A stretch of 64,000 nt of DNA from Parcubacteria group bacterium (GTDB taxonomy: Bacteria; Patescibacteriota; Minisyncoccia; Phycocordibacterales; DATDWN01): the NCBI GenBank assembly GCA_039740895.1, contig JBCLGS010000002.1, positions 258 to 64,257 of the forward strand, in the 5' to 3' direction. This document shows positions 4,772 to 51,911 of the stretch, one piece after another. The position numbers and the translations under genes were made by a program. The notes under the pieces were generated by a model. It ran no database searches and had not been told where the DNA came from. It was given only the letters and a program-made list of their open reading frames with translations. How positions within the stretch are numbered: position 1 is the stretch's first letter; each line of letters begins with the position of its first letter.

Positions 4772-4799
4772 ATCCGCTTTATGCGGGTTTTCGTTTTAT
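4772..4799. terminator. rho-independent terminator-like hairpin (ATCCGC..GCGGGT + T-run), bidirectional
   Basis: aaaatccgctttatgcgggttttcgtttta immediately 3-prime of the minus-strand 129-aa gene stop (4796). Confidence 0.45.
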
Positions 4800-5185
4800 T
4801 GAGGGAAAAATTCCAAAACTCCTCTGATTATAGATTTAAAATCATCATTTGAGATTGTTCCAACCTTTCTTACAAATCTCTTCGTACTAACAGTTCTAAT
4901 CTGGGTCAAAACAACAAAATATTCATTTTTATCGAAAATAAATTTATAATGAAACTTGTCACTTTTCATCTTAGAAGTTATAGGTAAAACCCAAGTCATT
5001 TGTTTGTTAAACTTTCTCAAGACTAAAGCTGTTCTCTCATATTGATTATTTTTACCATCAATCTCAATTCCGATATTTAACCCGAGTGACATCCACCAAA
5101 TTTCTCTTTCATTAACTCCCAAATTATCAGATTTTTTATCTATTATTTTCTTTAACTTATTCCAACTATCAAAATCTTTTTCCAT
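4796..5185 (-). CDS. MazF/PemK-family mRNA interferase-like toxin
   Basis: 129 aa; EREIWWMSLGLNIGIEIDGKNNQYERTALVL...VLPITS...FVVLTQIRTVSTKRFVRKVGTISNDDFKSIIRGVL follows the MazF/PemK pattern (RGDIW.V.L.P..G.E..G.RP.LV.S......V.P.T......Q.R..D..R); lies 15 bp downstream of lexA in the same operon. Confidence 0.5.
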   Translation of the reverse strand: MEKDFDSWNKLKKIIDKKSDNLGVNEREIWWMSLGLNIGIEIDGKNNQYERTALVLRKFNKQMTWVLPITSKMKSDKFHYKFIFDKNEYFVVLTQIRTVSTKRFVRKVGTISNDDFKSIIRGVLEFFPQ

Positions 5186-5200
5186 TATAGTTAAACAATT

Positions 5201-5776
5201 TTAATACTTCCGTATGACCCCTTTGACGATTGCTGCGACGCGAAGTTCATATTGAGGGTAAATGGGTCGGTAATTTTTATTTGCTGGTAATAAATAAACT
5301 TTACCGTCTTTTTTCTTGTAGTATTTCATAGTCCAGCCCCCATCCACTTCGGCAATAACAATGTCACCGTCTTTTGGTTCTCCTTTTCTTTCTGCCACAA
5401 CTAAATCTCCTTCTTTAATTCCTTCATCAATCATTGAATCTCCTTTAACCTCCAATAGGTATGTGGAATCTTTATATCGTATTAAATAATCATCAATATT
5501 TATCATATTTAAAGTCTCTTCTTCTGCCAGTGTAGGAAACCCTGCTTCTACAAGACCGAGAAGTGGGATTTCTCCCATTAGTCTCTTCGGCGTAAGCTTT
5601 CCTCGCGAGTCTTTGTCTACCGTTCCGTCATCAACTAATTTATTTATGAGTTTGTAAACAGCATTTTTAGACTTGAAGTCGACAAGGTCCATGATTTCCT
5701 TGTAGCCAGGCATTCTTTTATTACTTTTATAGAAAGCAATAATTTTATTTTTTTGTCGTAAAAAATTATTTTCCAT
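5201..5776 (-). CDS. lexA: LexA repressor (SOS transcriptional repressor, S24 peptidase)
   Basis: 191 aa; N-terminal winged HTH, LVEAG cleavage region, GDSM serine and a downstream Lys (WTMKYYKK) typical of the LexA Ser-Lys dyad. Confidence 0.85.
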   Translation of the reverse strand: MENNFLRQKNKIIAFYKSNKRMPGYKEIMDLVDFKSKNAVYKLINKLVDDGTVDKDSRGKLTPKRLMGEIPLLGLVEAGFPTLAEEETLNMINIDDYLIRYKDSTYLLEVKGDSMIDEGIKEGDLVVAERKGEPKDGDIVIAEVDGGWTMKYYKKKDGKVYLLPANKNYRPIYPQYELRVAAIVKGVIRKY

Positions 5777-5781
5777 AGTAT

Positions 5782-6003
5782 TTAAAATATAAAAACATTA
5801 GAAAGACTAAGTGGTCGACCAAACCACCCAGAGTTTACTTCACGATTTATCTCGTTATCCAAACCTTTGAGACTACAAAGAATAAATTTATGTCTTTTGG
5901 CCTCCCGAATATATGAGAGACCCTTAATGATTTTCTCATCAATCTGATCATTTAAAACTTCTAACTCACTTCTCAATGTTTTTTCTAAATTTTGTTTACT
6001 CAT
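5782..6003 (-). CDS. hypothetical small protein (73 aa), first gene of the lexA operon; possible antitoxin partner of the MazF-like gene
   Basis: ORF ends 5 bp upstream of lexA; no recognisable family; the GAAC-N4-GTTC box lies just upstream of its start. Confidence 0.3.
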   Translation of the reverse strand: MSKQNLEKTLRSELEVLNDQIDEKIIKGLSYIREAKRHKFILCSLKGLDNEINREVNSGWFGRPLSLSNVFIF

Positions 6004-6038
6004 GGTTTTTTGCTGTTATTTATATATAGATAGTATAA

Positions 6039-6054
6039 GTGAACCCAAGTTCAC
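6039..6054. promoter_or_regulatory. putative LexA (SOS, Cheo-type) box GTGAACCCAAGTTCAC overlapping the promoter of the 73aa-lexA-mazF-like operon
   Basis: Perfect palindrome matching the Gram-positive-type SOS box GAAC-N4-GTTC; located about 35 bp upstream of the operon start, adjacent to TTGCTG ... TAGTAT/TATAAG promoter-like hexamers. Confidence 0.5.
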
Positions 6055-6069
6055 TGTCAAGAAAATACT

Positions 6070-6145
6070 GTGGATAAGGGAAACGAAGTGGATAAGGGAA
6101 ACGAAGTGGACACTTATGCATCAAGTACTCTTGAGGCCACTTATG
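6070..6145 (+). repeat. inverted copy (~76 bp, ~1 mismatch) of the tandem-repeat block that forms the C-terminal extension of rpsP (16403-16479)
   Basis: gtggataagggaaacgaagtggataagggaaacgaagtggacacttatgcatcaagtactcttgaggccacttatgc is the reverse complement of the rpsP 3-prime coding repeat; here intergenic with no start codon. Confidence 0.85.
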
Positions 6146-45442: not shown

Positions 45443-45730
45443 TTATTTTAAAGGAATTTTAGTGCTTTTTATTAGTTGCAATTTTTGTTCCCTGCTCAAC
45501 ATTTTTATCTCACCTTCCCGGCGGCGAGATTCACTATATGTTTCAAATTTTTCTGAGTGCATCAAAACAGTCGGCCTGCGAATTTTTGTGTAGTGCGCTC
45601 CAGATTTTAAATTGTTATGTTGATGCAGTCTCTTTTTAAGATTATTCGTGGACCCGATATAGAAAGTTTTATCTGCACATTGAAGGATGTAAACGAAATA
45701 AGGTATTTTAACTAAAATTTTTTCGCTCAT
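45443..45730 (-). CDS. GIY-YIG nuclease-domain protein
   Basis: KIPYFVYILQCADKTFYIGSTNNLKKRLHQHN; start taken at MSEKI (the ORF extends to 45766). Confidence 0.7.
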   Translation of the reverse strand: MSEKILVKIPYFVYILQCADKTFYIGSTNNLKKRLHQHNNLKSGAHYTKIRRPTVLMHSEKFETYSESRRREGEIKMLSREQKLQLIKSTKIPLK

Positions 45731-45818
45731 ATTTATATTATATCGTAAATGGCGGCTGACCCCCATTTCCCTTGCTACTTTTACATGGAGAAGTGTTTTA
45801 TTTGTGCTAGAATACTAA

Positions 45819-46631
45819 ATGGAGGTTCCAATGGAACAAGACAAAAACTTCCCCTTAAACAAGGGAATAGCAGTGATTATGGGGCTGTTCCACATCGGAG
45901 CCGTCCTCGCTTTGTTCTTTACAACCCCAAACAGAATCCTTCTTGGATTCACTGTTTGGGCAATCGTAAGCAGTGTCGGCATCGGAGTCTGCTACCATCG
46001 TCTACTCACCCATAGGGGATACGAGACATATAAATGGCTAGAGTATTTGATGGCGACAATCGCTGCACTCGGTCAACAAAGCTTGGCAATCATCTGGGTG
46101 GCTCTTCATAGGATTCACCATAAGTTCACCGAACAACCAGGCAAAGACCCGCACACACCTCGAGATGGTCGCTGGTGGAGCCATATGGATTGGATTCTGC
46201 ATCCAAATCCAGAGTTCCAAAATAGCGTCTTCCTGAACAAGTGGGTACCTGACCTCATCCGACAACCATTCTACCGGAAACGCTACATTCAGTGGTTACC
46301 GACTGTAGTACTAGCTACACTCTGCCTTATCTTTGGTGGAGTTCCTGCTGTACTGTGGGGAGTCACATTACCGGTTGTGGTCGGCTGGCACCAAACATGG
46401 CTTGTCAATTCGGCAACTCATATCTGGGGTAAAAGACGCTTCGATACACCAGACGATTCTCGCAATCTCTGGTGGGTCGGGTTGCTGGCTTGGGGCGAGG
46501 GGTGGCATAACAACCATCATTACGACCCAGTTCGGGCACGGCATGGTATTGTTTGGTACGAGTTCGATGTGAACTGGTACTTCATCAAAACCCTTCAGTT
46601 CTTTGGGTTAGTATGGAAGGTAAAAGACTAA
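45819..46631 (+). CDS. acyl-CoA/acyl-lipid delta-9 fatty acid desaturase (membrane, three His boxes)
   Basis: HRLLTH, HRIHHKF and GEGWHNNHHYDP match the stearoyl-CoA desaturase His-box signature; GC near 50%, well above the window average. Confidence 0.8.
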   Translation: MEVPMEQDKNFPLNKGIAVIMGLFHIGAVLALFFTTPNRILLGFTVWAIVSSVGIGVCYHRLLTHRGYETYKWLEYLMATIAALGQQSLAIIWVALHRIHHKFTEQPGKDPHTPRDGRWWSHMDWILHPNPEFQNSVFLNKWVPDLIRQPFYRKRYIQWLPTVVLATLCLIFGGVPAVLWGVTLPVVVGWHQTWLVNSATHIWGKRRFDTPDDSRNLWWVGLLAWGEGWHNNHHYDPVRARHGIVWYEFDVNWYFIKTLQFFGLVWKVKD

Positions 46632-46690: not shown

Positions 46691-46916
46691 AGTTAGCAAG
46701 GGCGACATTTGCGAAGTTCGTCAGAATGCTCGAGTACACAATTAGGGCAACAAATTATTTTGTATTTCATATAGTAAATAACTCACCTTTTGAATTCTTC
46801 CGTGCGGTAAGTATACCAGAGTTTGCGTCCAAAGTATTTAATACTCTATACCCCTCGTTACCTATGGGTATAAATTTATCGTTTAGATTTATAAAATATG
46901 GATGTGGATAACTTAG

Positions 46917-46958
46917 CTTTGCCTTTCGGCTTCCGTTCGGTTATAATCAAATGGTAGC
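46917..46958 (+). promoter_or_regulatory. sigma70-like promoter TTGCCT-17-TATAAT for the LexA-methyltransferase gene
   Basis: Near-consensus hexamers ending 25 bp upstream of the ATG at 46981; the spacer contains a TTCGG direct repeat and is followed by the ATTGCAAT palindrome. Confidence 0.45.
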
Positions 46959-46980
46959 GTAAATTGATCTTAATTGCAAT

Positions 46981-48558
46981 ATGTCAAACCTCACAAAAAA
47001 GCAAAAACAAGTCTTCGACTTTATAAATACCTATATTGCCGAAAATGGCATATCTCCGACCATAGAAGAAATACGAAAAAAACTGAAACTCAAAGCAGTT
47101 TCTACTATTCACGAACATATCAATTCCCTCAGAGATAAGGGATATCTCTCAAAGTCTGAAAATTCAGCTAGAAGTCTATTGTTAAAGAAAGAAATCAAGT
47201 CTGTTGTTGAGATTCCTATTGTTGGGCGAATTACTGCGGGATATCCAATAGAAGCGATTGAAAATACAGAAGACACAATTTCCATAATCAATCCTAGTAT
47301 AAAAACTGCCGAGGGATACTATGCTTTGCGTGTTGTTGGGGACAGTATGATTGGTGAAGGAATTTTTGATAACGATATCGTGATAATCAAAAAACAATCG
47401 GTGGCTGAAAATGGACAAACAGTGGTTGCTATTATTGACGATAATGAAGCAACTTTAAAGAAATTGTATCGAGATAAAAATAGATTTAGATTGGAACCTA
47501 GAAATCAATCGATGCTTCCTTTTTACAGAAAAGAAGTAGAGGTCAGAGGTGTTGTCGTTCAAATAATAAGTAATATAAATAATGAAACAGTAGATATTCC
47601 TTCTAAAAAGACTAAGCATGGATTCAAAACAATCGATCTTTTTGCTGGAGTCGGTGGTATACGATTAGGTTTTGAAAATGCCGGATTCAAAACAGTTTTT
47701 GCAAATGATTTTGAGCCAAAATGTAAAGACACTTATGACCTTAATTTTAAAGATTCAAAGTTGGTTATTGAGGATATTAGAAAAATCGGGATTGACGATT
47801 TACCAAAGTTTGATTTCTTGCTCGGAGGATTCCCTTGTCAGGCTTTTTCTATTGCAGGATATAGGCAAGGTTTTAATGATGAGAAAGGCAGAGGCAATTT
47901 ATTTTTTGATATTGTAAGAATTCTTGATGCACGAAAACCTGAAGGTTTTCTACTTGAAAATGTAAAAAACTTGAAAAGCCATGATGGAGGTAAAACATTT
48001 CAAATAATTCTAGACACCTTAGAAAGTCTTGGCTATTATGTCAAAACAAAAGTTTTAAATAGTATGGAGTACGGAAATATCCCGCAAAATAGAGAGCGTA
48101 TTTATATCATAGGTTTTAGAAATAAAGACTATTCAGATAAATTTGAGTTTCCTAGCCCAGTAAAATTAACTGTAAAAATTACTGATTTATTAGAGAAAAA
48201 TGTACCTGAAAAATACTATTACAATGGCAAGCCATTGTTCGAAAAATTAAAAGGCTCTATAAAAGAAGAAGGAAAAGTATATCAATGGCGTAGGCAGTAT
48301 GTCCGAGAAAACAAAAGAGGTGTTTGTCCGACACTAACCGCAAATATGGGTACAGGTGGACATAATGTGCCAATCATAAAAGATAAAAAAGGTATCAGAA
48401 AATTAACCCCGCTTGAATGTGCACGAATACAAGGTTTTCCAAGTAGTTATAAAATACCTAAACTTGCAGATTCTGCTTTATATAAGCAATTTGGGAACTC
48501 TGTTAGTGTCCCAGTTATTGAAGCTGTCGGAAAACAGATGATGAAAGCAATGGAATAA
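46981..48558 (+). CDS. fusion protein: full LexA-like repressor (wHTH + S24 self-cleaving peptidase) joined to a C5 cytosine-specific DNA methyltransferase
   Basis: Residues 1-~200: LexA DNA-binding domain (QVFDFINTYIAENGISPTIEEIRKKL), cleavage-site region GRITAGYPIEA, catalytic GDSM Ser and TLKKLY Lys, C-terminal VRGVVVQIIS. Residues ~215-525: MTase motif I DLFAGVGG, IV GFPCQAFS, VI ENV, VIII QNRERIY, X GNSVSVPV. Single uninterrupted frame verified across the junction (47521-47700). Confidence 0.85.
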   Translation: MSNLTKKQKQVFDFINTYIAENGISPTIEEIRKKLKLKAVSTIHEHINSLRDKGYLSKSENSARSLLLKKEIKSVVEIPIVGRITAGYPIEAIENTEDTISIINPSIKTAEGYYALRVVGDSMIGEGIFDNDIVIIKKQSVAENGQTVVAIIDDNEATLKKLYRDKNRFRLEPRNQSMLPFYRKEVEVRGVVVQIISNINNETVDIPSKKTKHGFKTIDLFAGVGGIRLGFENAGFKTVFANDFEPKCKDTYDLNFKDSKLVIEDIRKIGIDDLPKFDFLLGGFPCQAFSIAGYRQGFNDEKGRGNLFFDIVRILDARKPEGFLLENVKNLKSHDGGKTFQIILDTLESLGYYVKTKVLNSMEYGNIPQNRERIYIIGFRNKDYSDKFEFPSPVKLTVKITDLLEKNVPEKYYYNGKPLFEKLKGSIKEEGKVYQWRRQYVRENKRGVCPTLTANMGTGGHNVPIIKDKKGIRKLTPLECARIQGFPSSYKIPKLADSALYKQFGNSVSVPVIEAVGKQMMKAME

Positions 48559-48563
48559 GAAAA

Positions 48564-49655
48564 TTATTTTATATATTTCCTTATATTATCAAGCATAACA
48601 TTCTCCTTATTTGGGATTTTATCTATAATAGATTTATGCATAAAATATTCACCATTTTTTGAACTAGACCTATCTAATAACTGGAACTTGATGATATAGG
48701 TTTTATTTGTTTCTAATTCTATGTCATTTATTTTTGCCTTACCTATTGTATATATTGTAATTGAGCTTTTACTGTTTTTCAAAACCTGAATTTTGTCTGC
48801 ATTTTCAACATATATATCAATTAATTTGTGCTTTCTATTGTTATCCAATTTATTTTCTTTCCAACTATATAAATTATCTATTTTTTTATTTACCCAATCT
48901 GAAAAAGACGCGGTTCGTGGTAGTATTCTTGGTGTTCGAGTTTCGTTTATTCCCTTTATGTAAAATGGACTTTCTCCTTCATTGCATAAGTTGGAATACT
49001 GCATAAAATCACTCGCTAAACAAACTGTAATAAGTCTCAGGGAGCCTAAATTCGTGTTATCCCGTCTAATCTTTGTAACTGATGATAGATCTTTATCTAC
49101 ATTTGTCTTTATAAAAACACTGTCGTCCATTTTTAATTTATCATAAACATCTTCACTTATAACTGTTTTCTCAAAAAAAGGCAGTAAATAATCACTATCA
49201 AGATCTGTCTCAACCATTACAAGATATTGCTTGTCGTAACCTTGATTTCTCAAACTAACCATATACTGTCCTTTTTTGAATGATTTAACTTCAATTTGCG
49301 GAGCATTATCTAAGGCACACCATTTATTCACATACTCGACAAATGGTATTGCCTTTGTTCCAATTTTTACACCCAGAACATCTGGGGCAATACCAGATTT
49401 TTTAGGGTTATATTCATAATAATCAGATATAACTTCTAGATTATCTGCTATTTTAGGAAGAAAATATTTATTAAAAATAATACTTTCAGGAATGATATTA
49501 ATCCAACGATCAAATACGCCTCCAATATAATCGCTTTTCCCACTAAGACCCCCGTACATTCTGCCTCGCTGAGCCATTGAGCAGACAAAATAGATGTATG
49601 GAACGACATCTTGTTTACTGATTATAATTTTATTGATTTTTGGCATCATTTTCAT
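48564..49655 (-). CDS. putative type II restriction endonuclease cognate to the adjacent C5-MTase (hypothetical protein by sequence)
   Basis: 363 aa; convergent with the MTase gene and 5 bp from it, the typical R-M arrangement; candidate PD...EVK catalytic residues (IAPDV ... LDNAPQIEVK); no family-level similarity recognised. Confidence 0.4.
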   Translation of the reverse strand: MKMMPKINKIIISKQDVVPYIYFVCSMAQRGRMYGGLSGKSDYIGGVFDRWINIIPESIIFNKYFLPKIADNLEVISDYYEYNPKKSGIAPDVLGVKIGTKAIPFVEYVNKWCALDNAPQIEVKSFKKGQYMVSLRNQGYDKQYLVMVETDLDSDYLLPFFEKTVISEDVYDKLKMDDSVFIKTNVDKDLSSVTKIRRDNTNLGSLRLITVCLASDFMQYSNLCNEGESPFYIKGINETRTPRILPRTASFSDWVNKKIDNLYSWKENKLDNNRKHKLIDIYVENADKIQVLKNSKSSITIYTIGKAKINDIELETNKTYIIKFQLLDRSSSKNGEYFMHKSIIDKIPNKENVMLDNIRKYIK

Positions 49656-49753
49656 ATTACTTAACGAAATAGTCTAAAGGCTTTTTGTAAAGTTTTGCGA
49701 ATTCTTTCAACTGTAAAACATCAAATCGTCTTTATCCTGATTCTATTTTTTGG

Positions 49754-49822
49754 CTGCGGGACTTGGGGTCGAACCAAGATTCACGCTTTCAGAGAGCGTT
49801 TGCCTACCATTAGCAGATCCCG
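49754..49822 (-). tRNA. tRNA-Gln (anticodon CUG)
   Basis: Cloverleaf: acceptor GCGGGAT/GTCCCGC, anticodon stem ACGCT/AGCGT with loop CTCTGAA (CUG), T-arm CTTGG-TTCGACC-CCAAG; no encoded CCA. Confidence 0.7.
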
Positions 49823-49883
49823 CAATATTTTATTATCAAACTTACTAATCCCCCTCTATTTTAAGTAATATTTAGTTGCGTTA

Positions 49884-49929
49884 CTGCTGTTTGTATTCAA
49901 TCGCTTTGCTCTTGAACAAACAGGGAGCC
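49884..49929 (-). repeat. family D hairpin element, inverted copy 2
   Basis: ctgctgtttgtattcaatcgctttgctcttgaacaaacagggagcc is the reverse complement of 22745-22790 with a compensatory stem change. Confidence 0.75.
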
Positions 49930-49977
49930 TTACCCGCCCGCCACGCAAGCCGAAGTGTGCGAGGCGTTGCGGGCGGG

Positions 49978-49999
49978 CCATTAGCAGATCCCGCAATAC
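49978..49999. repeat. 21-bp duplicate of the 5-prime end of tRNA-Gln (ccattagcagatcccgcaata), 155 bp beyond the intact tRNA
   Basis: Exact repeat of 49806-49826; the intervening segment holds a family D hairpin and a GC-rich inverted repeat (cccgcccgc...gcgggcggg). Confidence 0.8.
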
Positions 50000-50170
50000 A
50001 AACACTTATCAGAATACCCGAAAAACGGCATTTTTACAAGGAAAAAAGACATAAAAAAAGGCGTCGACTGAGTGGAGAAGGATGTCAGCGCCTTTGAACA
50101 GCTGGAGTTCCGTTACTCAGCAGTTCGTCATAATAATTCTAGACCTTTGCAAAACAAAGTCAAGCAAAAA

Positions 50171-51850
50171 TTATTTCTTCCCTTTTATACAAGCCAACAC
50201 GAATGCAGAAAAAAGAGGGTGGGGGTGAAGTGGGCGAGCTTTAAACTCTGGATGGAATTGTGTGCCAAGGAAAAATGGGTGAACTTCTTTTGGCAATTCT
50301 ACGATTTCCATAAGTCGTCCATCAGGTGAAGTGGCTGAGAAAATCATTCCAGCTTTTTCTATTTCGGCGATGTATTCTGGATTTACTTCGTAGCGATGTC
50401 GATGTCTCTCGGATATCTCACAAACACTAGGTGTCTGTAAATAATTGTATGATCCGTACGCGATAGTCCCTTCTTTCAAAATTGCAGGATAAGCTCCGAG
50501 TCGCATGGTTGCACCGTATTTGTTTTCTTCCAAAAGTTTTTTCTGCTCTGGCATAATATCAATAACAACATGCGAAGAGTTTGGATTTATTTCCGCTGTG
50601 TGTGCATCCTCCCATCCGACAACATTTCTGGCATATTCAATGACAGCGAGCTGCATACCATAGCAAAGTCCAAAATATGGAATTTTATTTTTTCGAACAT
50701 ATTCAATAGCCATGAGAACACCTTCAATACCACTTTCTCCGAAACCTCCAGGAACAATCACTCCATCATATTTTTTTAATTCTGCAATTTTATTTCCTGG
50801 TTTCTTTGGGTCAGTTTCATACTCTTTGGAATTTATCCATGTTAGATTTGTATTTGCGTCATTCCAGTATGAAGAAAACTTCACAGCCTCAATGACAGAA
50901 ACATAAGCGTCCGAGAGAACAAAATCCCCTGTGTCAAAATATTTTCCAACAACAGCAATGTTTAATTCTTTCTTTCCATTTTTTGATTTCTGAACAAATT
51001 TTCTCCATTCATATAAATCACCATTGTGTGATTTGGTTCTCATGTGGAGCGCCTTCATTATTACGCTAGCTATTTTATCTTTCTCAAAGTTTAGCGGTAC
51101 ATCATACACACTTTCTATATCAGGAGCAGAAATAACATTTTCTGTTGGAAGAGCACAAGAAAAAGCTATTTTTTCTTTTCTCTTGTAGTCCAGTGGCAAT
51201 GCGCTACGAGCAATGATGATGTCTGGTTGAACACCGTATGAATTTAGCTGTCGAACAGCATTCTGTGTAGGTCGTGTTTTCATCTCACCGAGAGAGCCTG
51301 GAATAGGAAGATAGGAAACCATGACAAAAGCCACATCATGCGGAGATTTTATTTTCAAAATTCTGGACGCCTCGATAAACATGATATTTTGATAATCCCC
51401 AATCGTTCCTCCGATTTCAATAAGTGATACATCGGACTGGTGGTCGTTTGCGGACTTTCTCCAACGACGAATAATTTCTTCTGTAATGTGTGGAATAGCT
51501 TCTACACACTTACCTTTGTAACCAAGATTTCTTTCTTTCTCAATAACATATTTATAGACCATACCAGATGTAATGTAGTCATCTGGACCAAGCTCGATCT
51601 CCATAAATCGCTCATAGTTTCCCATGTCCTGATCTGTCTCAAGTCCAGAATCAAGCACAAAAACTTCACCATGCTCAGTAGGGTTCATGTTTCCAGCATC
51701 CACATTTAAATAAGGGTCAACCTTTATTGGGTTGACCTTGAAGCCCTTGCTCTGAAGAATTTTTCCGATTGATGCTGATGCTATACCTTTGCCGACTCCT
51801 GACATTACTCCCCCAACAATAAATATGAATTTGTGATTTTTCTTTTTCAT
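50171..51850 (-). CDS. pyrG: CTP synthase
   Basis: N-terminal synthetase domain (FIFIVGGVMSGVGKG) and C-terminal class I glutamine amidotransferase (GLCYGMQLAVIEYARN, HPEF); start taken at MKKKN. Confidence 0.95.
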   Translation of the reverse strand: MKKKNHKFIFIVGGVMSGVGKGIASASIGKILQSKGFKVNPIKVDPYLNVDAGNMNPTEHGEVFVLDSGLETDQDMGNYERFMEIELGPDDYITSGMVYKYVIEKERNLGYKGKCVEAIPHITEEIIRRWRKSANDHQSDVSLIEIGGTIGDYQNIMFIEASRILKIKSPHDVAFVMVSYLPIPGSLGEMKTRPTQNAVRQLNSYGVQPDIIIARSALPLDYKRKEKIAFSCALPTENVISAPDIESVYDVPLNFEKDKIASVIMKALHMRTKSHNGDLYEWRKFVQKSKNGKKELNIAVVGKYFDTGDFVLSDAYVSVIEAVKFSSYWNDANTNLTWINSKEYETDPKKPGNKIAELKKYDGVIVPGGFGESGIEGVLMAIEYVRKNKIPYFGLCYGMQLAVIEYARNVVGWEDAHTAEINPNSSHVVIDIMPEQKKLLEENKYGATMRLGAYPAILKEGTIAYGSYNYLQTPSVCEISERHRHRYEVNPEYIAEIEKAGMIFSATSPDGRLMEIVELPKEVHPFFLGTQFHPEFKARPLHPHPLFSAFVLACIKGKK

Positions 51851-51911
51851 TCTGATTTCTGAGTTCTGATTAATTAAATAATAAAACATCATCCCAACCA
51901 AATTGGAAAGC

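What the first reader, a model, noticed from the sequence alone, without database searches (positions are those of the whole stretch)
46900..49655. SOS-coupled restriction-modification module candidate: LexA-MTase plus convergent 363-aa putative endonuclease
The fused MTase gene (+) and a 363-aa ORF (-) converge with only 5 bp between their stop codons, the classic type II R-M layout. The 363-aa protein has no family I can recognise, which is typical for REases, but has a possible PD...(D)..EVK arrangement. The MTase has its own strong TTGCCT-17-TATAAT promoter. Hypothesis: the LexA moiety acts as the C-protein-like controller. It would repress the module in unstressed cells and be inactivated by autocleavage after DNA damage, i.e. 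a damage-triggered defence or addiction module. The locus sits in a compositionally mixed accessory stretch (GIY-YIG, high-GC desaturase) next to tRNA-Gln.
Basis: inference. Interest (0 to 1): 0.7.

Follow-up and report, generated by a model that had tools for sequence, protein, structure and literature searches.

The report
LexA-fused methyltransferase restriction-modification cassette
This is a mobile restriction-modification gene pair, common in Patescibacteria, whose protective DNA methyltransferase is fused to a complete DNA-damage sensor (LexA); this probably lets the cell raise methylation when its own DNA is damaged, a control mode I did not find described for such systems.

Summary
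ORF 46981-48558(+) is one 525-aa protein made of a full-length LexA (winged-helix DNA-binding domain plus S24 self-cleaving domain) and a C5 DNA methyltransferase. ORF 48564-49655(-) converges on it, with 5 bp between the stop codons.

Across about 21 distinct Patescibacteria loci this gene always faces a LexA-methyltransferase fusion. In Clostridia, Bacillales and Alphaproteobacteria its homologues sit beside the same methyltransferase without LexA. Near-identical fusions pair with two other nuclease families. So this is a genuine Type II R-M cassette.

The restriction gene ancestrally has its own C-protein; in this window only the gene's last ~95 bp survive, abutting tRNA-Gln. The only conserved candidate operator, tandem TTCGG-N6-TTCGG between -35 and -10, lies in the methyltransferase promoter. 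The window also holds a separate LexA (29% identical) with a GAAC-N4-GTTC box.

Best model: LexA autorepresses the methyltransferase gene, and RecA-triggered cleavage induces it (protective). The recognition site may be GCNGC. I found no paper describing this fusion.

The parts
46903..46911 (+). TGTGGATAA box, identical to the DnaA-box consensus TTATCCACA. It lies about 8 bp upstream of the -35 and marks the left edge of cassette conservation.
   Evidence: Present at the same place in nearly all fusion loci and in L044 and L047. It occurs 5 times in the window against 0.57 expected, always between long ORFs. Its function was not tested.
46919..46947 (+). Promoter of the fusion gene: -35 TTGCCT, 17-bp spacer, -10 TATAAT.
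   Evidence: Consensus scan gives a 10/12 match. The -10 is conserved across 14 aligned promoters.
46925..46940 (+). Candidate LexA operator: tandem direct repeat TTCGG-N6-TTCGG (11-bp period) filling the -35/-10 spacer.
   Evidence: The two TTC(G) blocks and the -10 box hold all the invariant columns across 14 diverged promoters, including three non-C5 contexts. A PWM finds one site per locus, always here, and one site in the 64-kb window. Binding was not tested.
46981..48558 (+). LexA-C5 DNA methyltransferase fusion gene (525 aa).
   Evidence: Pfam, NCBIfam and PADLOC hits. More than 120 clusters at >=82% identity all carry the three domains.
46981..47172 (+). LexA winged-helix DNA-binding domain (aa 1-64).
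   Evidence: PF01726, E = 5e-17. The recognition-helix motif STxHxH is mostly retained among fusions and differs from the window's other LexA.
47215..47559 (+). S24 autoproteolysis and dimerisation domain (aa 79-193): cleavage bond A86|G87 (47236-47241), Ser122, Lys160.
   Evidence: PF00717, E = 5e-29. The Ala-Gly bond, Ser and Lys align with E. coli LexA A84-G85, S119 and K156 and are conserved in 16 fusions whose LexA part is 41-85% identical.
47623..48543 (+). C5 cytosine methyltransferase domain (aa 215-521), with motifs FAGVGG, PCQ (Cys286), ENV, QNRER, TL and GNSV.
   Evidence: PF00145, E = 2.6e-95. It is 38% identical to M.HhaI.
48559..48563 (.). 5-bp gap between the convergent stop codons, with no terminator-like site.
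   Evidence: The only terminator-like hits lie inside the genes.
48564..49655 (-). Restriction endonuclease candidate (363 aa; start probably at M3/M4). The N-terminal domain (about aa 10-200) is a PD-(D/E)xK fold with E57, D92 (49380-49382), E122 (49290-49292) and K124 (49284-49286). The C-terminal domain (about aa 201-363) is beta-rich.
49656..49750 (-). Remnant of the controller (C, HTH_3) gene: its last ~29 codons, with a CAA>TAA stop. The 5' two-thirds of the gene, its promoter and its C-box region are missing.
   Evidence: Upstream comparison. The alignment to intact C genes of L050, L049 and L004 breaks exactly at the tRNA 3' end. C genes are intact in relatives whose nuclease is 89-92% identical.
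49751..49824 (-). tRNA-Gln(CTG), forming the right-hand junction. It is the only evident upstream transcription source for the nuclease gene in this window.
   Evidence: ARAGORN and Rfam, 52 bits. Read-through transcription is an inference.

Best explanation
This is a mobile Type II restriction-modification cassette.

The nuclease is a two-domain PD-(D/E)xK enzyme of an undescribed family. The m5C methyltransferase, possibly GCNGC-specific, carries a complete LexA at its N-terminus.

Proposed mechanism:
1. The fusion dimerises through its S24 domain.
2. Its winged-helix domain binds the tandem TTCGG-N6-TTCGG repeat between -35 and -10 of its own promoter. Methyltransferase synthesis is therefore self-limiting, as with SsoII- and EcoRII-type methyltransferases.
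3. RecA filaments form after DNA damage, after self-restriction of under-methylated DNA, or on incoming or recombining single strands.
4. The fusion then cleaves itself at A86|G87. The DNA-binding domain is lost and the promoter opens.
5. More methyltransferase is made. Its transcription runs head-on into the terminator-less nuclease gene.

The net effect is a damage-induced 'restriction alleviation', or autoimmunity feedback, that protects newly made unmethylated chromosome.

The operator differs from that of the genome's other LexA (GAAC-N4-GTTC). The cassette would therefore share the RecA signal but keep a private operator.

The nuclease gene is ancestrally driven by its own C-protein. In this window that gene and its promoter are truncated at tRNA-Gln. 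The intact nuclease ORF is therefore either expressed only by read-through or on its way to decay.

Shown here: domain content, conservation of the catalytic residues, gene linkage, nuclease-module swapping, the conserved repeat, and the C-gene truncation. Inferred: DNA binding, cleavage, direction of the response, and the recognition site.
For: R-M identity:
- Domains and motifs of the fusion.
- Invariant D92/E122/K124.
- Homologues of the nuclease sit next to the orthologous C5 methyltransferase in Patescibacteria, Clostridia, Bacillales and Alphaproteobacteria.
- An upstream C-protein operon is present in many loci.
- Fusions with an identical target-recognition region pair with PDDEXK_5 and NgoFVII_C nucleases at the same position.

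LexA function:
- The full-length TIGR00498 match is above its cut-off.
- The Ala-Gly bond, Ser and Lys are conserved although the LexA part diverges to 41% identity.

Operator:
- There is one site per locus, always in the spacer of the methyltransferase promoter.
- It persists where the rest of the promoter has diverged. It is also present upstream of related lexA genes in other contexts: L044, L047 and L048.
- No operator lies upstream of the nuclease or C genes.

Private operator:
- The second lexA at 5201-5776 is 29% identical to the fused one. Its operon promoter carries the window's only GAAC-N4-GTTC.

Generality:
- The same LexA clade is fused to N6_N4 and Dam-type methyltransferases, and it heads a lexA-M-R(HinfI) operon.

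Recognition-site lead:
- GCWGC and GCSGC rank 1st and 3rd most depleted of 32 palindromic 5-mer classes in 204 kb of host flanks (252 sites against 448 expected).
- Observed is below expected in 22 of 23 loci, and the window has 47 against 94.
- Small control loci and loci lacking the methyltransferase give 0.8-1.1.

Precedents:
- Methyltransferase-borne repressors and Type I restriction alleviation (PMC3874152, PMC12707154, PMC4231737).
Against: - No binding, cleavage, methylation or expression data exist.
- The operator is inferred only from conservation. The PWM was trained on the same sites, and it missed L044, where the repeat reads TTTCT.
- No recA gene lies in the window. Its presence in the genome is assumed.
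- Raising methyltransferase during a phage-induced SOS response could help the phage, which is a cost to this design.
- The fate of the cleaved S24-methyltransferase fragment is unknown. E. coli LexA fragments are degraded after cleavage (my own knowledge).
- GCNGC avoidance could come from other Fnu4HI- or Bsp6I-type systems. Three cassette hosts show none (L011, L051, L053).
- In this window the nuclease gene has lost its native promoter, so the circuit may no longer operate as a full R-M system.
Confidence: 0.5

Rival explanations
1. First reader's model, the suicide or defence switch. LexA keeps the module quiet. DNA damage or phage-induced RecA activation inactivates the methyltransferase fusion (cleavage followed by degradation) or unleashes the nuclease. 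The cell then restricts its own DNA, which amounts to abortive infection or addiction.
For: The self-cleavage residues are conserved. The methyltransferase stays attached to the S24 fragment, and in E. coli LexA that fragment becomes a protease substrate after cleavage (my own knowledge). R-M systems can act as addiction modules (PMC3874152).
Against: No LexA-type operator lies upstream of the nuclease or C genes. The nuclease has its own C-protein control. The operator position predicts more methyltransferase transcription after cleavage, not less. Nothing here indicates that the fragment is unstable.
Confidence: 0.12
2. Plain autorepressor. The LexA part serves only as a dimeric DNA-binding module for methyltransferase autoregulation and timing of establishment, like the SsoII or EcoRII N-terminal domains. 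RecA-dependent cleavage plays no physiological role.
For: Methyltransferase-borne repressors without any sensor exist (PMC12707154, PMC3874152). The operator lies in the spacer of the methyltransferase promoter.
Against: The Ala-Gly bond, catalytic Ser and Lys are all retained in every one of 16 fusions whose LexA part is down to 41% identical. This is unexpected if cleavage were dispensable. The same cleavable LexA module recurs on three methyltransferase classes.
Confidence: 0.17
3. In this genome the module is a decaying remnant. With the C gene and its promoter deleted, the nuclease is silent. The fusion then acts as an orphan, SOS-tunable methyltransferase.
For: The C gene is truncated exactly at the tRNA-Gln 3' end and carries an in-frame stop. 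No promoter-like site lies in 49656-49750. A related locus shows a frameshifted nuclease beside an intact methyltransferase (L033).
Against: The 363-aa ORF is intact with all invariant residues. Many natural loci lack a C gene yet keep the nuclease. The tRNA lies 95 bp upstream on the same strand with no terminator-like site between them.
Confidence: 0.2
4. The fusion is a genuine global SOS regulator of the host, and the methyltransferase is merely attached to it.
For: NCBI names it 'transcriptional repressor LexA'. A related unfused LexA lies near dnaA/dnaN in Moranbacteria.
Against: The window encodes another LexA with a canonical GAAC-N4-GTTC box. The fusion-type operator occurs once in 64 kb and once per locus. 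The gene travels with the nuclease between unrelated flanks.
Confidence: 0.05

Closest known systems
C5 methyltransferases with a fused N-terminal repressor domain (M.SsoII, M.Ecl18kI, M.EcoRII, M.MspI, M.ScrFIA)
   Same: A Type II m5C methyltransferase carries an N-terminal DNA-binding domain that represses its own promoter (PMC3874152; PMC12707154, section 'dual function MTase repressors').
   Different: Here the added module is a complete LexA (PF01726 plus the S24 protease, about 200 aa), not a short helix-turn-helix region. It has a conserved self-cleavage site, which adds a RecA/DNA-damage input. The operator is a tandem direct repeat, and a separate C-protein also exists.
C-protein-controlled Type II R-M systems (PvuII, BamHI, AhdI, Esp1396I)
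   Same: A small HTH_3 gene lies immediately upstream of the nuclease gene, with a conserved upstream box region, in many related loci.
   Different: In the window the C gene is truncated. The methyltransferase gene has a second, independent regulator in the fused LexA.
LexA and LexA-like repressors of mobile elements (SOS regulon; phage CI, SXT SetR)
   Same: A winged-helix domain plus an S24 domain with the Ala-Gly bond, Ser and Lys. An operator overlaps its own promoter. The expected trigger is activated RecA.
   Different: The LexA is covalently fused to an enzyme. The operator is private (a TTCGG direct repeat), whereas the genome's other LexA has GAAC-N4-GTTC. The apparent regulon is a single gene.
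Restriction alleviation of Type I R-M systems (ClpXP degradation of HsdR)
   Same: The proposed outcome is the same: temporary protection of unmodified chromosomal DNA arising after damage, recombination or acquisition of the system (PMC4231737, PMC11109961).
   Different: The mechanism is entirely different. It acts by transcriptional induction of the methyltransferase in a Type II system, not by proteolysis of the nuclease.
Fnu4HI / Bsp6I (GCNGC) and NgoFVII (GCSGC) R-M systems
   Same: Hosts avoid GCNGC. Bsp6I-like and NgoFVII_C-like nucleases sit beside orthologous methyltransferases.
   Different: The 363-aa nuclease has no sequence similarity to those families. The specificity is only a lead.

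Membership tests
Type II restriction-modification system | A DNA methyltransferase with complete catalytic motifs. | tested here: met
   PF00145 E = 2.6e-95; TIGR00675 347.8 bits. Motifs FAGVGG, PCQ, ENV, QNRER, TL and GNSV are all present.
Type II restriction-modification system | An adjacent endonuclease with a nuclease fold and catalytic residues. | tested here: met
Type II restriction-modification system | The nuclease and methyltransferase genes are linked across unrelated genomes. | tested here: met
   About 21 distinct Patescibacteria loci, plus Clostridia, Bacillales and Alphaproteobacteria loci with the orthologous methyltransferase. Nuclease modules are swapped against the same methyltransferase.
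Type II restriction-modification system | Sequence-specific cleavage that is blocked by the cognate methylation. | not testable with these tools
   Only an indirect lead exists: GCNGC avoidance in host flanks.
LexA (TIGR00498) | An N-terminal LexA winged-helix domain plus a C-terminal S24 domain, scoring above the curated cut-off. | tested here: met
   180.8 bits against a cut-off of 110.95, covering residues 1-199 of the 203-position model.
LexA (TIGR00498) | An Ala-Gly scissile bond and a Ser/Lys catalytic dyad. | tested here: met
   A86-G87, S122 and K160 align with E. coli A84-G85, S119 and K156. They are conserved in 16 fusions.
LexA (TIGR00498) | RecA-stimulated self-cleavage and repression of target promoters. 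| not testable with these tools
   A candidate operator lies in its own promoter. There is no biochemistry.
C-protein-controlled R-M | An intact controller gene with its box region upstream of the nuclease gene. | tested here: not met
   The window keeps only the last ~95 bp of the gene, with a premature stop. The feature is met in relatives L004, L007-L009, L013, L019, L020, L049 and L050.
SsoII-type regulatory methyltransferases | A short N-terminal helix-turn-helix region homologous to that of M.SsoII or M.EcoRII. | not tested
   The N-terminal region is assigned to PF01726 and PF00717, a different domain type. No direct comparison with SsoII was run. The resemblance is functional only.

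The most novel reading that the evidence does not exclude
The LexA-methyltransferase fusion is a damage- or phage-triggered kill switch. RecA-induced cleavage marks the S24-methyltransferase fragment for proteolysis. Methylation then lapses and the stable nuclease destroys the chromosome, which would be an abortive-infection mode built into a Type II R-M system. The same logic would extend to the LexA fusions with N4/N6 and Dam-type methyltransferases in Patescibacteria.
Probability: 0.12. Interest if true: 0.85.

Novelty: new variant of a known kind. Interest (0 to 1): 0.68.

Why it matters
- **A DNA-damage input for Type II systems.** Type II R-M systems are thought to lack a dedicated response to self-damage. 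Restriction alleviation is known for Type I systems. A methyltransferase that carries its own RecA-sensitive repressor would give Type II systems an autoimmunity feedback. It would also show how a mobile element can tap the host SOS signal while keeping a private operator.
- **It is widespread.** The pattern covers hundreds of protein clusters and several Patescibacteria lineages. The same LexA clade is attached to three methyltransferase classes. This suggests a lineage-wide regulatory strategy in organisms that, to my knowledge, depend on DNA uptake and recombination.
- **A new nuclease family.** The cassette also delivers an uncharacterised PD-(D/E)xK restriction enzyme family with a C-terminal domain that resembles no solved structure.
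- **It is directly testable.** Standard biochemistry (band shift, self-cleavage, protection against Fnu4HI) and methylome data would settle the main questions.

Tried and rejected
- **First structure model.** The model from 20 close homologues failed in the nuclease domain (pLDDT below 50). The 65-sequence alignment fixed this.
- **Searches that found nothing.** Foldseek against the PDB gave no significant match. The profile search against PDB sequences gave nothing. The afdb50 library was unavailable.
- **Failed look-ups.** The exact look-up of the window's own fusion protein found no record.
- **Literature.** The Patescibacteria SOS paper (Sanchez-Osuna 2017) is not held, so the published LexA motif for this group could not be checked. 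Six literature searches and three full-text checks found no description of a LexA-methyltransferase fusion.
- **Four-base site avoidance.** The strong ACGT, GCGC and GATC depletion in the window is not shared by other cassette hosts. It was rejected as a clue to specificity.
- **M.HhaI similarity.** The 38% identity does not extend convincingly through the target-recognition region, so GCGC was not inferred.
- **Nuclease comparison.** The 149-aa PDDEXK_5 nuclease shows no profile similarity to the 363-aa family.
- **Desaturase neighbours.** The desaturase genes next to the window's cassette and next to the nuclease homologue in L027 are unrelated, so this is coincidence.
- **Extra PWM hits.** The L025 hit falls inside a coding region. 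The two extra L013 hits were not examined. All are treated as chance.
- **PWM on independent loci.** It ranked the expected site first in L047, second in L048, and missed L044.
- **Viral contigs.** They contain only unfused methyltransferase homologues.
- **Other checks.** No recA lies in the window. Rfam found nothing besides the tRNA.
Full report
**Observation**

The two ORFs are as described. ORF 46981-48558(+) encodes 525 aa and ORF 48564-49655(-) encodes 363 aa, with 5 bp between the stop codons.
- The 525-aa protein contains LexA_DNA_bind (1-64), Peptidase_S24 (79-193) and a C5 DNA_methylase domain (215-521).
- It scores above the curated cut-offs of both TIGR00498 (LexA, covering 1-199 of 203 model positions) and TIGR00675 (dcm).
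- It is not an assembly artefact. More than 120 protein clusters at >=82% identity from independent assemblies carry the same three domains in one ORF.
- The promoter TTGCCT-17-TATAAT (46919-46947), tRNA-Gln (49751-49824, minus strand), the GIY-YIG gene and the high-GC desaturase are all present.

**The 363-aa protein is a restriction endonuclease of an undescribed family**

It has no hit in Pfam, NCBIfam, PADLOC, PHROGs or PDB sequences.
- The family is small: 308 clusters at 90% identity and 153 representatives at 50% identity among 1.84 billion proteins.
- In a 65-sequence alignment spanning 23-87% identity, the invariant residues are D78, Y82, D92, G95, W112, E122, K124 and E336. E57 is nearly invariant. 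This gives the classic E...PD...ExK pattern.
- With that alignment AlphaFold gives pLDDT 92.7.
- The C-terminal beta-rich domain (about 201-363) has no convincing structural match.

**Comparative genomics makes the R-M assignment strong**

- In every Patescibacteria locus where downstream sequence exists (about 21 distinct loci), the gene converges on a LexA-methyltransferase fusion. The flanking genes differ from locus to locus.
- In Clostridia, Bacillales and Alphaproteobacteria, homologues at 38-53% identity sit next to the orthologous methyltransferase. That methyltransferase is 44-58% identical, has the same target-recognition region, and has no LexA.
- Fusions 82-87% identical to the window's, with an identical target-recognition region, pair with other nucleases at the same convergent position. 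One is a 149-aa PDDEXK_5 protein with a C gene. The other is a 384-aa NgoFVII_C protein, in a locus with a Vsr gene divergently upstream of the fusion gene.
- Swapping of nuclease modules against a constant methyltransferase is typical of R-M evolution (my own knowledge).

**A controller gene exists, and is broken here**

- Many loci, including relatives whose nuclease is 89-92% identical, have a 73-aa HTH_3 gene ending 1-20 bp before the nuclease start. It has a conserved upstream region.
- In the window only that gene's last ~95 bp survive (49656-49750), with a CAA>TAA change.
- Homology stops exactly at the 3' end of tRNA-Gln.
- The intact nuclease ORF has therefore lost its native promoter and activator. 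No promoter-like or terminator-like site separates it from the tRNA. Read-through from the tRNA side is the only evident source of expression, which is an inference.

**Regulatory DNA of the fusion gene**

Aligning promoters from 14 loci, all the invariant columns fall in two TTC(G) blocks 11 bp apart and in the -10 box. The loci include Saccharibacteria-type cassettes and three non-C5 contexts.
- In the window the repeat is TTCGGCTTCCGTTCGG (46925-46940). It fills the spacer between -35 and -10, the position expected for a repressor.
- A PWM finds one such site per locus, always there, and only one in the 64-kb window. None lies upstream of the nuclease or C genes.
- On loci not used for training, the expected site ranked first in L047 and second in L048. 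It was missed in L044, where the repeat reads TTTCT.
- An 11-bp-period direct repeat recalls the alphaproteobacterial LexA box GTTC-N7-GTTC (my own knowledge).
- A TGTGGATAA box, identical to the DnaA-box consensus, lies just upstream of the -35 in most loci.

**LexA competence, and a second LexA in the window**

- The scissile Ala-Gly bond (A86|G87), Ser122 and Lys160 align with E. coli A84-G85, S119 and K156.
- They are conserved in all 16 fusions examined, although the LexA part diverges to 41% identity while the methyltransferase part stays at >=70%.
- The window also encodes a stand-alone LexA at 5201-5776 (minus strand), scoring 121 bits against TIGR00498. It is only 29% identical to the fused one and has a different recognition helix.
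- Its operon promoter carries the window's only GAAC-N4-GTTC, placed between -35 and -10.
- The fusion is therefore an extra LexA with its own operator type.

**The association is general**

- The fused LexA clade also occurs joined to N6_N4 (PF01555) and Dam-type (PF02086) methyltransferases.
- It occurs as a separate gene heading a lexA-M-R(HinfI) operon.
- It occurs in a LexA-N6_N4 fusion beside a BsaWI-type system.
- These loci share the TTC(G/T) repeat promoter layout.

**Recognition-site lead**

- No four-base palindrome is consistently avoided across cassette hosts.
- GCNGC is avoided. GCWGC and GCSGC rank 1st and 3rd most depleted of 32 classes in 204 kb of flanks (252 sites against 448 expected).
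- Observed is below expected in 22 of 23 loci, and the window has 47 against 94. There are no GCNGC sites inside the cassette.
- Clostridial hosts give observed/expected of 0.09-0.45. Small control loci give 0.8-0.95, and the loci lacking a methyltransferase give about 1.0-1.1.
- Bsp6I-like (GCNGC) and NgoFVII-like (GCSGC) nucleases appear beside orthologous methyltransferases.
- This is suggestive, not proof.

**Mechanism and rivals**

The best-supported model has four parts:
- The fusion represses its own promoter through the tandem repeat.
- RecA-stimulated cleavage removes the DNA-binding domain and induces the methyltransferase.
- Convergent, terminator-less transcription may at the same time dampen the nuclease gene.
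- The outcome is protection of unmethylated DNA made during repair, recombination or establishment. This would be a Type II counterpart of Type I restriction alleviation (PMC4231737, PMC11109961).

Rivals:
- A kill switch, which needs an unstable cleaved methyltransferase.
- A plain autorepressor, argued against by the conserved cleavage residues.
- A decaying module in this particular genome.
- A global SOS regulator, argued against by the single operator and the second LexA.

**Comparison with known systems, and novelty**

- Methyltransferase-borne repressors (SsoII, Ecl18kI, EcoRII, ScrFI) and C-proteins are well described (PMC3874152, PMC12707154).
- Neither of those reviews describes a LexA-fused methyltransferase; PMC12707154 never mentions LexA, and PMC3874152 mentions it only for toxin-antitoxin systems. 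A 2026 preprint on methyltransferases of the candidate phyla radiation has no mention of fusions, peptidases, repressors or SOS.
- Six literature searches found nothing. The one directly relevant paper on the Patescibacteria SOS network is not held.
- I rate this a new variant of a known kind: a Type II R-M system whose methyltransferase carries a cleavable SOS sensor, together with a new nuclease family.
- Interest is 0.68. Confidence that it is an R-M system is about 0.9. Confidence that LexA autoregulates the methyltransferase gene through the repeat is about 0.65. Confidence that SOS induction is protective is about 0.45.

Noticed in passing
window 4796-6112 (minus strand): A second, stand-alone lexA at 5201-5776 (191 aa, above the TIGR00498 cut-off). 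A small ORF precedes it and a PemK/MazF-type toxin gene (4796-5185) follows it. The operon promoter TTGACA-17-TATACT has GAAC-N4-GTTC (6041-6052) in its spacer and three TTATCCAC-like boxes just upstream (6069-6112). This may be an SOS-controlled toxin operon.
   Followed up: partly
window 4383, 4698, 6069, 13676, 46903: TGTGGATAA, the DnaA-box consensus, occurs 5 times against 0.57 expected, always between long ORFs and often just upstream of a -35. It also lies upstream of lexA-type promoters in L044, L047 and most cassette loci. It may be a DnaA or other global factor site.
   Followed up: partly
window 49937-49998: An exact 21-nt copy of the 5' end of tRNA-Gln (49978-49998) lies 171 bp upstream of the real tRNA, next to a strong GC-rich hairpin. 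This is a sign of a past rearrangement at this tRNA. Rfam and ARAGORN call nothing there.
   Followed up: partly
window 45819-46631: The fatty-acid desaturase gene has a GC content of 0.47-0.50 in surroundings of 0.33-0.37, so it is probably foreign. A desaturase next to the nuclease homologue in L027 is unrelated.
   Followed up: yes
whole window: ACGT is strongly avoided (19 sites against 97 expected), and GATC and GCGC are at about 0.44. Other cassette hosts do not share this, so other R-M systems in this genome are the likely cause.
   Followed up: partly
L044 3001-5981; L048 4001-4912; proteins P0479, P0484, P0505: LexA of the same clade heads a lexA-M(N6_N4)-R(HinfI) operon. It is also fused to N6_N4 and Dam-type methyltransferases, and one such fusion lies beside a BsaWI-type R-M system.
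   Followed up: partly
L051 5581-6260; L053 3486-7115: Near-identical LexA-methyltransferase fusions pair with different nucleases. One is a PDDEXK_5 protein of 149 aa with a C gene. The other is an NgoFVII_C protein of 384 aa, in a locus that also has a Vsr gene.
   Followed up: partly
L027 4947-6104; L028 3951-5033: Contigs from archaeal-labelled genome bins carry a nuclease homologue (54-56% identical) with no homologous C5 methyltransferase in the ~10-11 kb fetched. Either the nuclease is an orphan or the contigs are mis-binned.
   Followed up: partly
L033 4980-6109: The nuclease homologue is split by a frameshift while the neighbouring methyltransferase is intact. This is an example of decay of the nuclease gene.
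   Followed up: no
L049 1707-3296: A large serine recombinase gene lies next to the C-R-M cassette in the closest relative (92% identical nuclease). It is a possible vehicle for the cassette's mobility.
   Followed up: no
window 45443-45766; L004 5248-5568: A small GIY-YIG protein is encoded near the cassette, both in the window and in an unrelated locus. Its significance is unknown.
   Followed up: no
L025 3358-6086 and window 49655-51901: The CTP synthase gene (pyrG) lies immediately upstream of the nuclease gene in L025. It is also the next gene beyond tRNA-Gln in the window. This could be a shared insertion neighbourhood or coincidence.
   Followed up: no
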